Shown: piece by piece, positions 17,451 to 63,436 of the stretch
Numbering within the stretch: position 1 is the stretch's first letter
Layout of the letters: each line of letters starts with the position of its first letter
Sequence record: NC_012638.1
Origin: Escherichia phage RB14
DNA: 64,000 nucleotides
Reading direction: 5' to 3' (one strand)
Translations under genes and position numbers: made by a program
Notes under the pieces: generated by a model
What the model saw: the letters and a program-made list of their open reading frames with translations, nothing else
Database searches by the model: none
What the model was told of the DNA's origin: nothing

Positions 17451-17615
17451 TTACTCTTCTTTTTCTTTAGATTCCTCTTTCTTCTTTTTAGGAATCTGTT
17501 CAGGGCCTTTATTTACTACAGCACCTGATGTTGTTCCAGTAGAGATATTTTCAGGATTACCACCTGAATCTCCAGCAACCATATCTTCTTTAATAAATTC
17601 TTTATATGTTTTCAT
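17451..17615 (-). CDS. small protein with capsid-targeting-like N-terminus, 54 aa (not in ORF table)
   Basis: my translation MKTYKEFIKEDMVAGDSGG...; GAGGT Shine-Dalgarno; position equals T4 61.1. Confidence 0.4.
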   Translation of the reverse strand: MKTYKEFIKEDMVAGDSGGNPENISTGTTSGAVVNKGPEQIPKKKKEESKEKEE

Positions 17616-17616
17616 A

Positions 17617-17973
17617 TTAACCTCTATTCATAAAAGCATTAAAAATTTGGTCATCAATAGACGGTGCAGTAATATTTTCTGCATCATTTAGCAAATCATT
17701 AATTTCATCAGATAGCATAACACATGTACCTTTATTTCCTGTAATTGTTACTGCGCAATTACGAACGTTTTCTTTATTAAATTTTAGGTTAATATTTTCG
17801 TAATGAAAATCCTTTAATGCTGAATATATTTTTAAAATAAAATTATCTTTTACTACAATAAACCCAACCTCACTATTAAAACGCGGTTCATGGAAACTGT
17901 AATAAACCTTTTCATCTATAAAATCGTATGAAATTTTTTCCATTTTTAAATATGAAAATTCAGAACTATACAT
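17617..17973 (-). CDS. hypothetical protein at the 61.2 position, 118 aa
   Basis: ORF table; position between primase and spackle. Confidence 0.5.
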   Translation of the reverse strand: MYSSEFSYLKMEKISYDFIDEKVYYSFHEPRFNSEVGFIVVKDNFILKIYSALKDFHYENINLKFNKENVRNCAVTITGNKGTCVMLSDEINDLLNDAENITAPSIDDQIFNAFMNRG

Positions 17974-61330: not shown

Positions 61331-61660
61331 TCAATTAGAAAATAAATTTATCCAAGATTGTTCTTTAATTAAAAATGGCTCAGAATCATATGCCATTAAA
61401 CTTTGGGTGATTAGTCCTTTAAAAGGTCCATCAATAAATTCCATGGTAAAATATGGAATTTTATTCATTAGCCGTGCATTAGGAGCAGTACACAAAACTC
61501 TGCATCCTTTGAATACGCCTTTTTGTAATTTGTATTGCTTGGGATAAAATTCGCTTAAAATGTTGTTATTTGCCAAAATTTCAAAATGATTTACCAATTT
61601 ATTTTTAATAGTTTTTGGCGAAAAATAGAGATATTCGAAAAGCTGCGTGTCTGTCATCAT
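61331..61660 (-). CDS. hypothetical protein, 109 aa, translationally coupled to the upstream P-loop gene
   Basis: ATGATG start overlaps the upstream TGA stop. Confidence 0.5.
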
Positions 61661-62244
61661 TGCATTCCGATTACGAAAAACTGCGGACGAGTAATACCAC
61701 CAATGCAACATTTACTATTACAGCAGTAGTGTACAGTGTCAATATGGACGCTATAAATCTTATCCATATCAGGAGATTTGACAGGCTCATCAATTATATA
61801 CAAAATTCGCGAAAGCGATAAACCTCTGAACTTGCTTCCTTTATTACCAATAAAACTGCGCACAGAATCAGTAAATAAACGAAAACGTATATCATCATTA
61901 GAATAACGCGAAAATTCCTTTTTAATGTTATTTGCAGAAATTTTAGCGTAAGCTGAAGTATTAGAAAGAACAATAACTGTTCCGCCATCATACAGCCAAT
62001 TAGCGGCAAAGTTAGTCACAGCAATTGATTTACCGGATTGACGTCCACCATCTATACGAAGTGTGCAGTACTGTTTAAGTAATTCTTCAAATGGCGGGAT
62101 ATATTCGTTTTTACAAATTTCTTCTACTCTAGCATCAGAATGGTGTGTAAAAGCATTCATCAGGGATAGATAAGGACCAGTTAAAAATGTTCTCATTTTA
62201 TTCTCTCTAAATTTGGGCCATTCCATGGCGCATGAATTGTCCAT
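61657..62244 (-). CDS. small P-loop NTPase, about 179-195 aa
   Basis: Walker A GGRQSGKS and Walker B-like ILYIIDEP. Confidence 0.5.
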   Translation of the reverse strand: MDNSCAMEWPKFRENKMRTFLTGPYLSLMNAFTHHSDARVEEICKNEYIPPFEELLKQYCTLRIDGGRQSGKSIAVTNFAANWLYDGGTVIVLSNTSAYAKISANNIKKEFSRYSNDDIRFRLFTDSVRSFIGNKGSKFRGLSLSRILYIIDEPVKSPDMDKIYSVHIDTVHYCCNSKCCIGGITRPQFFVIGMQ

Positions 62245-62337
62245 TTCTGTATTTACCCATTACCGCACTCAGGCTCGACCTTATTACAGGTTGGCGGGAA
62301 TCCCTCATAGAATCATGAGGTCCAGGTTGTTCCCATA

Positions 62338-62811
62338 TTATTTGAACGATTTAACGTACTGAATAGAACCTTTACTATTCACAAAGGCAATTTTACCATT
62401 TTTGTTATACATGGTAGCAGTACGTTGATAGCCATAAGTTTGTTTACCAGATTGATAACCAACTAATGCAAAATTATCTTCACCCATTTTATTCTGTTTA
62501 GCACGAATGCGTTCATGGCCATGTGCCATAAGAACCTTAGCATCACCTGTTGCAATGGATCGACGAGTTTTTTCATCTTCAACTGTATTAACAAAGTCGT
62601 CAAATGAATCAAATTTAGCATGAGATTTATTATACAGTTTTCCATCTACTGCATAATTATATCCTTGTACATCCATCTCAACTTCTGTACCATCATCCAA
62701 TACAGCAGTGATTTTCTGTCCTTTTTTAAATTTCAAAAGATCAGTAAAAGATTCAGCAATAATTTGAGAATTAATAGCTGCTTCAGTAATAAATTCTTGA
62801 TATGTTTTCAT
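62338..62811 (-). CDS. capsid internal protein with capsid-targeting sequence, 157 aa
   Basis: N-terminus MKTYQEFITEAA matches the T4 internal-protein targeting sequence; locus next to e as for ipII/ipIII. Confidence 0.65.
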   Translation of the reverse strand: MKTYQEFITEAAINSQIIAESFTDLLKFKKGQKITAVLDDGTEVEMDVQGYNYAVDGKLYNKSHAKFDSFDDFVNTVEDEKTRRSIATGDAKVLMAHGHERIRAKQNKMGEDNFALVGYQSGKQTYGYQRTATMYNKNGKIAFVNSKGSIQYVKSFK

Positions 62812-62905
62812 GTGTATCCTTTAAATGTAAATATTTTAATTAATAATTTATCTCTTCAAATAACTGTGAATATACTATCACAATTCTAGGAGAAAGTAAA
62901 TAACT

Positions 62906-63436
<531 letters not shown>

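What the first reader, a model, noticed from the sequence alone, without database searches (positions are those of the whole stretch)
62338..62811. Single internal-protein gene with canonical capsid-targeting sequence
The 157-aa product begins MKTYQEFITEAA, the N-terminal targeting sequence that directs T4 internal proteins into the capsid and is removed by the prohead protease. Internal proteins are injected with the DNA and include known anti-restriction effectors (IPI against GmrSD). The body of this protein does not look like T4 IPII or IPIII to me, so it may be a distinct injected effector.
Basis: partly seen in the sequence, partly recalled or inferred. Interest (0 to 1): 0.5.

Follow-up and report, generated by a model that had tools for sequence, protein, structure and literature searches.

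The report
Known T2-type internal protein Ip4
This gene is Ip4, a named internal head protein of T2-like phages that carries the standard capsid-packaging tag and is probably injected with the DNA; the gene is not new, but its target in the host is still unknown.

Summary
A 157-aa ORF lies on the minus strand at 62338..62811 and begins MKTYQEFITEAA. It keeps all four positions shown experimentally to matter in the T4 IPIII capsid-targeting sequence: Y4 and F7 for targeting, I8 and E10 for processing.

It is not a new protein, though:
- It is 100% identical to Ip4/IpIV of phage T2 and RB32, and 99% identical to UniProt Q38388, "Ip4 [phage K3]".
- It matches Pfam DUF7412 and PHROG 3155 ("internal virion protein") over its full length.
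- It occurs in 469 sequenced phages, compared with 261 that carry IPIII.

In this T2/RB18-like Tequatrovirus, ip4 exactly replaces the T4 block ipIII-ipII-denV. It keeps the promoter/stem-loop cassette found upstream of the T4 ip genes.

No sequence or fold relative with a known function was found. Published work shows that T4 Ip1-3 each block a distinct GmrSD enzyme and that another CTS-bearing protein blocks McrBC. "ip4-10" gave no reproducible inhibition against a GmrSD panel.

The most likely reading is a packaged, protease-processed, injected basic protein that acts against an unidentified first-response defence. A DNA-associated or structural role is the main rival.

The parts
62338..62811 (-). 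ip4 coding sequence (157 codons plus stop); precursor 17.8 kDa, pI 8.9
   Evidence: ORF list. 100% identical to T2/RB32 Ip4. Pfam DUF7412 E=5.7e-96 and PHROG 3155 E=6e-102, both full length.
62782..62811 (-). Codons 1-10, MKTYQEFITE: capsid-targeting sequence ending in the I-T-E gp21 cleavage motif. Predicted cut after E10 gives a 147-aa, 16.5-kDa protein with pI 9.1.
   Evidence: Differs from the IPIII/IPII leader MKTYQEFIAE at position 9 only. The determinant positions 4, 7, 8 and 10 and the L/I-X-E rule come from PMC9026906. M1, K2, F7 and E10 are invariant across the family. Masses and pI.
62752..62781 (-). Codons 11-20, AAINSQIIAE: a possible extension of the propeptide, with a second I-A-E motif. 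A cut after E20 would give 137 aa, 15.5 kDa, pI 9.3.
   Evidence: E20 is invariant, and position 18 is I, L or M in all 12 family members. T4 IP propeptides are 10-19 residues long. Whether this site is actually cut is not known.
62862..62900 (-). PeSL-type early promoter plus stem-loop: TTTACT (62900..62895), 17-nt spacer, TAGTAT (62877..62872), with stem AATTGTGA/TCACAGTT (62885..62862) enclosing the -10 box.
   Evidence: Homologous block upstream of T4 ipIII (85% over 121 nt) and ipII (81% over 113 nt). Geometry. The T4/PST PeSL consensus TTTACW-N17-TAYWAT plus stem-loop is from PMC4122927. Promoter activity is inferred, not shown.
62817..62821 (-). Shine-Dalgarno-like AAGGA, 5 nt upstream of the ATG
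   Evidence: Read directly from the sequence. Invariant TTTAAAG-A block in the alignment with the T4 ip upstream regions.
63414..63434 (-). Two tandem T4 late-promoter boxes (TATAAATA) upstream of gene e. They could supply late read-through transcripts into ip4.
   Evidence: Pattern search. No terminator-like site was found on the minus strand between e and ip4. The read-through is inference.
62906..63400 (-). Gene e (T4-type endolysin), the upstream neighbour that anchors the locus
   Evidence: Pfam Phage_lysozyme. 98.8% identical to T4 e. Same gene order as T4 and T2.
61657..62308 (-). vs.8 homologue, the downstream neighbour, split here into a 33-aa ORF (62207..62308) and a 195-aa ORF (61657..62244). 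T4 homology ends exactly at the ip4 stop codon (62338).
   Evidence: tblastn and blastn against the T4 locus.

Best explanation
The gene is ip4, one of the interchangeable internal-protein cassettes of T-even phages.

Proposed mechanism, step by step:
1. The precursor is transcribed from its own early-type promoter/stem-loop cassette, and probably also late by read-through from the promoters of gene e (inferred).
2. Its 10-residue N-terminal capsid-targeting sequence docks it onto the scaffolding core, so it is built into the prohead (inferred from the T4 IPIII experiments).
3. The gp21 prohead protease cuts after Glu10 (I-T-E|A), and possibly again after Glu20 (I-A-E|S). This releases a basic protein of about 15.5-16.5 kDa (pI 9.1-9.3) that stays with the packaged DNA (inferred from the motif).
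4. The protein is ejected into the cell with the DNA, so it is present before any phage gene is expressed (inferred by analogy).
5. In the cell it most likely acts as a stoichiometric binder that disarms a first-response nuclease attacking glucosyl-hmC DNA. That would be a type IV restriction enzyme not yet tested, or another immediate-early defence (inferred by analogy with Ip1, Ip2, Ip3 and Bas37_0260).

My confidence in the separate claims:
- It is Ip4: about 0.99.
- It is a packaged, processed internal protein: about 0.85.
- It is an anti-defence effector: about 0.5.
- Its target is of the GmrSD type: about 0.25.
For: - Identity: 100% to T2/RB32 Ip4, with 289 phage records at 99% or more. 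T2 annotates it as 'ipIV internal virion protein' in the same position, next to e. 99% identical and TM 0.93 to Q38388, Ip4 of phage K3. Full-length matches to DUF7412 and PHROG 3155.
- Leader: it keeps the four experimentally defined CTS positions and an L/I-x-E site. M1, K2, F7, E10 and E20 are invariant in the family. Remote relatives at about 35% identity still begin MNFEQFLNE|S or MNFKDFLNE|S.
- Locus: ip4 precisely replaces T4 ipIII-ipII-denV. T4 homology stops at the ip4 stop codon and resumes inside the leader codons. The upstream promoter/stem-loop cassette is shared with T4 ipIII and ipII.
- Charge: the mature form is basic, as the T4 IPs are.
- Function by analogy: Ip1, Ip2 and Ip3 each inhibit one GmrSD variant. 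Bas37_0260, another CTS-bearing protein, inhibits McrBC.
- Binder rather than enzyme: there is no Pfam catalytic domain, and the histidines H64, H97 and H99 are not kept in the remote relatives.
Against: - I found no direct evidence that Ip4 is in virions or is ejected. Literature searches for Ip4, IpIV and DUF7412 returned no functional or proteomic study.
- Silas et al. tested 'ip4-10' against the GmrSD variants active on T-evens and found no reproducible inhibition. I could not verify from their supplements that their ip4 has this sequence.
- Ip4 is strongly conserved: 70% amino-acid identity between E. coli and Klebsiella phages, more than the neighbouring endolysin at 64%, with dN/dS about 0.12. 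That is not the signature of a rapidly escaping arms-race protein and would also fit a housekeeping or structural role.
- The AlphaFold model is only moderate (pLDDT 72) and matches no known inhibitor fold.
Confidence: 0.7

Rival explanations
1. Ip4 is packaged and processed as above, but its main role is physical. It would act as a basic DNA-associated or core-associated protein that helps head assembly, DNA condensation or ejection, as reported for part of IPIII's phenotype. It would have no specific host target.
For: - Basic mature protein, pI 9.1-9.3, with 22 Lys+Arg.
- T4 IPs are present at about 300 copies each, contact DNA through lysines, and IPIII mutants show slower head assembly and a smaller burst.
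- Ip4 is under purifying selection and is more conserved than the adjacent endolysin.
- It is the commonest occupant of this locus, in 469 records.
- No GmrSD target was found in the published screen.
Against: - The gene is dispensable at the lineage level. T4 lacks it entirely, and phages swap it as a cassette.
- Every CTS-bearing T-even protein whose function has been solved is a host-directed effector: Ip1, Ip2, Ip3, Bas37_0260 and Alt.
- Ip4 sits in tandem with IPIII in Klebsiella phages, so it is not simply a substitute for IPIII.
Confidence: 0.22
2. Ip4 is an injected enzyme, like Alt, that covalently modifies a host component rather than acting as a stoichiometric inhibitor.
For: - Alt shows that enzymes can travel by the same route.
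- Within the close family there are many invariant polar residues: H64, H99, D47, E111, D112, N113.
Against: - No catalytic Pfam domain, and no hit among solved structures by sequence profile.
- The histidines and the E111-D112 pair are not conserved in relatives at about 35% identity.
Confidence: 0.05
3. The leader is only a recombination scar of the cassette system, and Ip4 is an ordinary cytoplasmic early protein that is never encapsidated.
For: - The leader codons are part of the homology block that mediates cassette exchange.
- Gene 61.1 shows that a CTS-like start can occur on a protein not known to be packaged.
Against: [quoted passage not shown] Ip4 keeps every critical position.
- The leader is conserved at the protein level, with M1, K2, F7 and E10 invariant, even in relatives whose DNA has diverged to about 70% identity. 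A related leader persists in the relatives at about 35% identity.
Confidence: 0.03

Closest known systems
Ip4 / IpIV of phages T2, RB32 and K3 (UniProt Q38388; Pfam DUF7412 / PF24183; PHROG 3155)
   Same: It is the same protein: 100% identity to T2 and RB32, 99% to K3, with the same position next to gene e and the same length.
   Different: Nothing of substance. The flanks differ slightly from T2: about 98% nucleotide identity to RB18 and SHBML-50-1, and the downstream vs.8 is arranged differently.
T4 IPIII and IPII (ipIII and ipII, next to gene e)
   Same: Same locus, same upstream promoter/stem-loop cassette, and a leader that differs at one position in ten (A9T). Like them it has an L/I-x-E cleavage site and is basic. 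IPIII is a proven GmrSD(ECOR17) inhibitor and IPII a proven GmrSD(ECOR21) inhibitor.
   Different: There is no detectable similarity beyond the leader. Ip4 has no known target. Ip4 can sit in tandem with IPIII.
T4 IPI / IPI* (GmrSD-CT596 inhibitor)
   Same: CTS-type leader with an I-T-E|A cleavage site. IPI is cut after residue 19, which is comparable to the second candidate site at E20 in Ip4. It is small, injected and non-essential.
   Different: IPI is encoded at the other IP locus, beside 57B. There is no significant body similarity. No IPI* structure appeared among the listed structural matches.
Bas37_0260 (CTS-bearing McrBC inhibitor, HIDEN-SEQ preprint 10.1101/2025.11.20.689424)
   Same: A T-even accessory protein that shares only the N-terminal packaging signal with IPI-III and acts against a type IV restriction system. 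It shows that IP targets are not limited to GmrSD.
   Different: It is encoded at the ipI locus. I did not have its sequence, so its relationship to Ip4 is untested.

Membership tests
T-even internal proteins (CTS-bearing, gp21-processed, encapsidated) | N-terminal capsid-targeting sequence with the experimentally critical residues: positions 4 and 7 for targeting, 8 and 10 for processing | tested here: met
   MKTYQEFITE has Y4, F7, I8 and E10. It differs from the IPIII/IPII leader only at position 9. The criteria come from PMC9026906.
T-even internal proteins (CTS-bearing, gp21-processed, encapsidated) | gp21 cleavage motif L/I-x-E at the end of the propeptide | tested here: met
   I-T-E at residues 8-10 and I-A-E at 18-20. 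Both glutamates are invariant in 12 family members.
T-even internal proteins (CTS-bearing, gp21-processed, encapsidated) | Encoded in one of the two polymorphic IP loci and flanked by the conserved promoter/stem-loop block | tested here: met
   The gene occupies the slot next to e, in place of T4 ipIII-ipII-denV, and the upstream block is homologous to those of T4 ipIII and ipII. There is no such block downstream; T4 homology resumes directly in vs.8.
T-even internal proteins (CTS-bearing, gp21-processed, encapsidated) | Physically present in mature heads in processed form and ejected with the DNA | not testable with these tools
   This needs virion proteomics or an injection assay. No such data for Ip4 turned up in the searchable literature.
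Ip4 family (Pfam DUF7412 / PHROG 3155) | Full-length profile match above the curated threshold | tested here: met
   DUF7412 scores 319 bits against a cutoff of 27, covering residues 1-157 of the protein and 1-158 of the profile. PHROG 3155 gives E=6e-102 over 1-157.
T4 IPII / IPIII families | Sequence homology of the mature body | tested here: not met
   With IPIII, BLASTP aligns only residues 1-13. With IPII, the alignment is driven by the leader and shows 31% identity over 77 residues. IPIII-body and IPII-body queries find nothing in the window.
Injected inhibitors of type IV restriction (Ip1, Ip2, Ip3, Bas37_0260) | Demonstrated relief of a specific type IV enzyme (GmrSD variant or McrBC) | not testable with these tools
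   In the published screen, 'ip4-10' gave no reproducible inhibition of the GmrSD variants tested. I found no report of Ip4 tested against McrBC or other systems.
Injected inhibitors of type IV restriction (Ip1, Ip2, Ip3, Bas37_0260) | Sequence or fold similarity to a known member | tested here: not met
   No body similarity to IPI, IPII or IPIII. No significant structural match in the PDB or BFVD other than Ip4 itself. The members of this functional group are themselves mutually unrelated, so this failure says little about function.

The most novel reading that the evidence does not exclude
Ip4 is an injected inhibitor of a defence that has not yet been linked to internal proteins. The target could be an untested type IV family (McrBC-, Mrr- or SRA-like, or an uncommon GmrSD clade) or a non-restriction first-response system. 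Several features point to a conserved host target rather than a fast-moving one, which would make it a broad-spectrum anti-defence factor:
- It is unusually well conserved (dN/dS about 0.12).
- It is present in phages of Escherichia, Shigella, Klebsiella, Salmonella, Serratia and Yersinia.
- It has relatives, complete with leader, in a 381-kb phage contig.
Probability: 0.35. Interest if true: 0.55.

Novelty: already known. Interest (0 to 1): 0.22.

Why it matters
Internal proteins are the only phage weapons already present in the cell at the moment the DNA enters. In the past few years every one that has been solved turned out to be a specific inhibitor of a type IV restriction enzyme: Ip1, Ip2, Ip3 and Bas37_0260.

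In the phage collection searched here, Ip4 is more widespread than IPIII (469 records against 261), and it still has no known target. Finding that target would explain part of the host range of T2-like phages, which are widely used in therapy cocktails, and might uncover a new defence.

As a genome-scan finding, however, this is a correct re-identification of an annotated gene and not a discovery.

Tried and rejected
1. I searched the phage collection with an IPI sequence recalled from memory. The sequence was wrong and the search was wasted. I then took IPI, IPII and IPIII from the annotated T4 record instead.
2. The unusually GC-rich 140 nt downstream of ip4 looked like a possible structured RNA or a denV remnant. 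Rfam found nothing relevant, and its folding energy was no better than that of shuffled sequences (z = 0.15). tblastn showed it to be the 5' part of T4 gene vs.8, in a different frame from the rest of the gene here. The RNA and denV-remnant ideas are rejected.
3. Remote homology. A word-indexed search found 14 clusters, all at least 61% identical. An exhaustive profile search of 1.84 billion representative proteins found only 7 hits, of which 3 are true remote relatives. None of them has an annotated function.
5. A PDB sequence-profile search found nothing below E=0.5.
6. Literature. Repoila et al. 1994 (PMC395341) is not held, so my attribution of the name Ip4 to that paper rests on the UniProt entry for phage K3 and on my own recollection.
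7. I could not confirm that the 'ip4' of Silas et al. has this exact sequence.
8. I could not establish which BASEL phage Bas37 is, or whether it carries Ip4.

Full report
**1. The observation**

A 157-codon ORF lies on the minus strand at 62338..62811, with its ATG at 62811 and its stop at 62340..62338. Its product begins MKTYQEFITEAAINSQIIAES.

Across all six frames of the window only two ORFs fit the pattern MK[TSQ][YF].[ED]F. One is this ORF; the other is a 54-aa ORF at 17451..17615, which turned out to be T4 gene 61.1.

**2. What the window is**

The surrounding 8 kb is 97.5-98% identical to T2-like Tequatroviruses such as Shigella phage SHBML-50-1, RB18 and RB27. Read along the minus strand, the gene order is nudE, e (endolysin), this ORF, vs.8, vs.7, vs.6 ... 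regB, vs, tk. That is the T-even order.

**3. Identity of the protein**

- tblastn finds the protein in 469 phage records. Of these, 289 are at 99% identity or more, and 160 are at 60-80%, mostly Klebsiella phages.
- In T2 (NC_054931) the identical protein is annotated 'ipIV, internal virion protein', directly downstream of e. In RB32 it is annotated 'Ip4'.
- Pfam DUF7412 matches over the full length (E=5.7e-96), as does PHROG 3155 'internal virion protein' (E=6e-102).
- The only significant match to my structure model in the viral structure library is UniProt Q38388, 'Ip4 [Enterobacteria phage K3]', at 99% identity and TM 0.93.
- From memory, the names Ip4 to Ip13 come from Repoila et al. 1994 (EMBO J 13:4181), which described ten leader-bearing ORFs in the two polymorphic IP loci. 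That paper is not in the library. It is, however, the reference cited for 'at least 10' Ips by Silas et al..

So the gene is known and named.

**4. The leader**

T4 IPIII and IPII both begin MKTYQEFIAEA. This protein begins MKTYQEFITEA, so it differs at one position among the ten leader residues.

The review of Black's work (PMC9026906) reports several relevant facts:
- The first 10 residues of IPIII were all that was required for its encapsidation.
- Targeting depends mainly on residues 4 and 7, and processing on residues 8 and 10.
- gp21 cuts after Glu in the motif L/I-X-E.
- IP propeptides are 10-19 residues long.

Ip4 has Y4, F7, I8 and E10, so it meets every criterion defined by sequence.

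A second motif, I-A-E at residues 18-20, is also conserved. E20 is invariant, and position 18 is I, L or M in all twelve members. IPI is cut after residue 19 at I-T-E|A, so a second or alternative cut at E20 is plausible, though untested.

The mature protein would be 147 aa (16.5 kDa, pI 9.1) or 137 aa (15.5 kDa, pI 9.3). Either form is basic, like the T4 IPs.

**5. The body**

BLASTP against T4 IPIII aligns only residues 1-13. Against IPII and IPI the alignments are driven by the leader and show about 30% identity over fewer than 80 residues.

The family is compact:
- The word-indexed search of 5.8 billion proteins found 14 clusters, all at least 61% identical.
- The exhaustive profile search of 1.84 billion representatives found only seven hits.
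- Three of those hits are true remote relatives at 34-37% identity. Two begin MNFEQFLNES and MNFKDFLNES, which is a variant leader with an L-N-E site; in the third an S-L-N-E|S site aligns instead with Ip4's second site, E20.

A near-identical copy of one remote relative lies in a 381-kb IMG/VR contig. There it sits in a cluster of four ORFs that all start M-x-F-x-x-F-L-N-E. The 'leader plus variable body' arrangement, and the Ip4 body itself, therefore extend well beyond the T-evens.

Adding these relatives to the alignment leaves only 17 invariant positions. The histidines H64, H97 and H99 and the E111-D112 pair are lost. This argues against a conserved catalytic centre.

The structural evidence is also negative:
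- The AlphaFold2 model is of moderate quality: pLDDT 72 and pTM 0.65. It shows two N-terminal helices, a beta-hairpin, three helices and a C-terminal sheet.
- Foldseek against the PDB gives nothing at E<=0.001.
- The PDB sequence-profile search gives nothing below E=0.5.

There is therefore no clue to function from homology or fold.

**6. Locus architecture**

blastn against the T4 locus shows 96.5% identity from vs.6 through vs.8. This homology ends exactly at the ip4 stop codon, which corresponds to the T4 denV stop codon. It resumes at window position 62780, inside the leader codons, and continues through the block upstream of T4 ipIII (85% identity) and ipII (81%). In this phage, ip4 therefore replaces ipIII-ipII-denV as one unit. 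No T4 IPI, IPII, IPIII or denV bodies occur anywhere in the window.

The shared upstream block reads TTTACT-N17-TAGTAT, and the inverted repeat AATTGTGA/TCACAGTT encloses the -10 box. This fits the 'promoter-early stem-loop' (PeSL) consensus TTTACW-N17-TAYWAT reported for T4/PST apart from its third position (G where the consensus has a pyrimidine). Those authors link PeSLs to the 1994 IP-locus observations and to cassette shuffling.

Two late-promoter boxes (TATAAATA) lie upstream of e, and no terminator-like site separates e from ip4. Late read-through expression is therefore plausible, but this is inference.

**7. Distribution and evolution**

The IPIII body occurs in 261 phage records, against 469 for Ip4. 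The two are not mutually exclusive. Klebsiella phage Phi_KR1 carries e, then ip4 (70% identical), then ipIII, in tandem.

Between the window and Phi_KR1, ip4 has dN/dS of about 0.12, and the adjacent endolysin about 0.14. dS is saturated in both cases, so these figures are approximate. Ip4 is more conserved at the protein level than the endolysin, at 70% against 64%. Diversity at this locus therefore comes from gaining and losing cassettes, not from rapid change within Ip4.

**8. What is known about function**

- IPI* inhibits GmrSD of strain CT596.
- IPIII is needed to infect ECOR17 and works without its leader when expressed in the cell.
- Silas et al. 2025 showed that Ip2 blocks GmrSD of ECOR21 and Ip3 blocks the two-gene GmrSD of ECOR17, with no cross-protection. 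T2 lacks both.
- The same authors tested ten ip genes, including 'ip4-10' in their Supplementary Fig. 9, against the additional GmrSD variants that were active on T-even phages. They found no reproducible inhibition.
- A 2025 preprint shows that Bas37_0260, a CTS-bearing protein at the ipI locus, inhibits McrBC.
- I found nothing that assigns a function to Ip4 or detects it in virions. One preprint mentions T2 ipIV only as a gene whose homopolymer run showed no slippage variants.

**9. Conclusion**

The best-supported mechanism has four steps: CTS-directed incorporation into the prohead core, gp21 cleavage after E10 and possibly E20, retention with the DNA as a basic protein, and ejection into the host. 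I put the probability that Ip4 is packaged and processed at about 0.85.

Once in the cell, it most likely neutralises an immediate-early nuclease defence by binding it (about 0.5). A GmrSD-type target is now less likely (about 0.25) given the negative screen. The main rival is a DNA-associated or assembly role (about 0.2). An enzymatic role, or no packaging at all, is unlikely.

As a scan finding it is accurate but not novel: it is a known, annotated member of a known class. The remaining open question, Ip4's target, is genuine and can be tested directly.

Noticed in passing
window 17451..17615 (-): A 54-aa ORF begins MKTYKEFIKED, a CTS-like start with Y4, F7, I8 and E10 all present. It is the homologue of T4 gene 61.1 (97.6% to T4T 61.1 over the 42 residues aligned) and is conserved in about 1400 phage records, including Aeromonas and Acinetobacter phages. 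It lies just upstream of the primase gene and next to a 118-aa ORF (17617..17973) that by position should be 61.2/adfA (not checked), in what Srikant et al. call an anti-toxin-antitoxin island. I do not know whether 61.1 is packaged.
   Followed up: partly
window 61657..62308 (-): The vs.8 homologue is split relative to T4's 219-aa vs.8. A 33-aa ORF (62207..62308) is 94% identical to T4 residues 1-32, and a 195-aa ORF in another frame (61657..62244) covers residues 26-219. The 5' part is unusually GC-rich. Parts of the 144-nt stretch (62197..62340) match at 74-81% nucleotide identity in several other genera (1000 records match in all), often in stretches annotated as intergenic. PHROG 1488 covers only residues 19-195 of the 195-aa ORF, so most annotated homologues may begin near its internal Met17. 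The T4 annotation may be over-extended, or this may be a frameshifted or programmed arrangement.
   Followed up: partly
window 62245..62340 and the whole window: denV (endonuclease V) is absent from its T4 position and from the whole window. T4 homology ends exactly at the denV stop codon. This fits the classical observation, recalled from memory, that T2 lacks the v gene and is more UV-sensitive than T4.
   Followed up: partly
L004 1005..4474 (IMG/VR UViG_3300011242_000001, 381-kb contig): A cluster of four ORFs on both strands shares the leader M-x-F-x-x-F-L-N-E: 138 aa, 243 aa, 83 aa, and the 157-aa Ip4 relative. This looks like an internal-protein-style cassette array in a jumbo-sized phage contig.
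   Followed up: partly
window 62727 and 62573 (codons 29 and 80 of ip4): There are two A6 runs inside ip4. A 39-aa metagenomic variant (P0020) is identical up to codon 30 and then goes out of frame, as a slip in the first run would produce. A preprint on phage contingency loci reports zero slippage variants at the T2 ipIV repeat in five populations.
   Followed up: no
Public records seen: Annotation of this gene is inconsistent. It appears as 'valyl tRNA synthetase modifier' in T2 AP018813, 'internal head protein II' in SH7, 'IpIII' in Sf25, and 'hypothetical protein' in most records. In NC_054931, nudE is annotated as a 972-nt CDS that runs through gene e.
   Followed up: no
P0014 (Klebsiella phage vB_Kpn_AM_K5, 184 aa): This Ip4 homologue diverges completely after residue ~134, with an unrelated C-terminal tail of about 50 residues. 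It is probably a frameshift or a sequencing error.
   Followed up: no
window 63414..63434 (-): Two tandem TATAAATA late-promoter boxes sit 13 nt apart immediately upstream of gene e. Each is embedded in a CCTCCTA / TAGGAGG inverted repeat.
   Followed up: no
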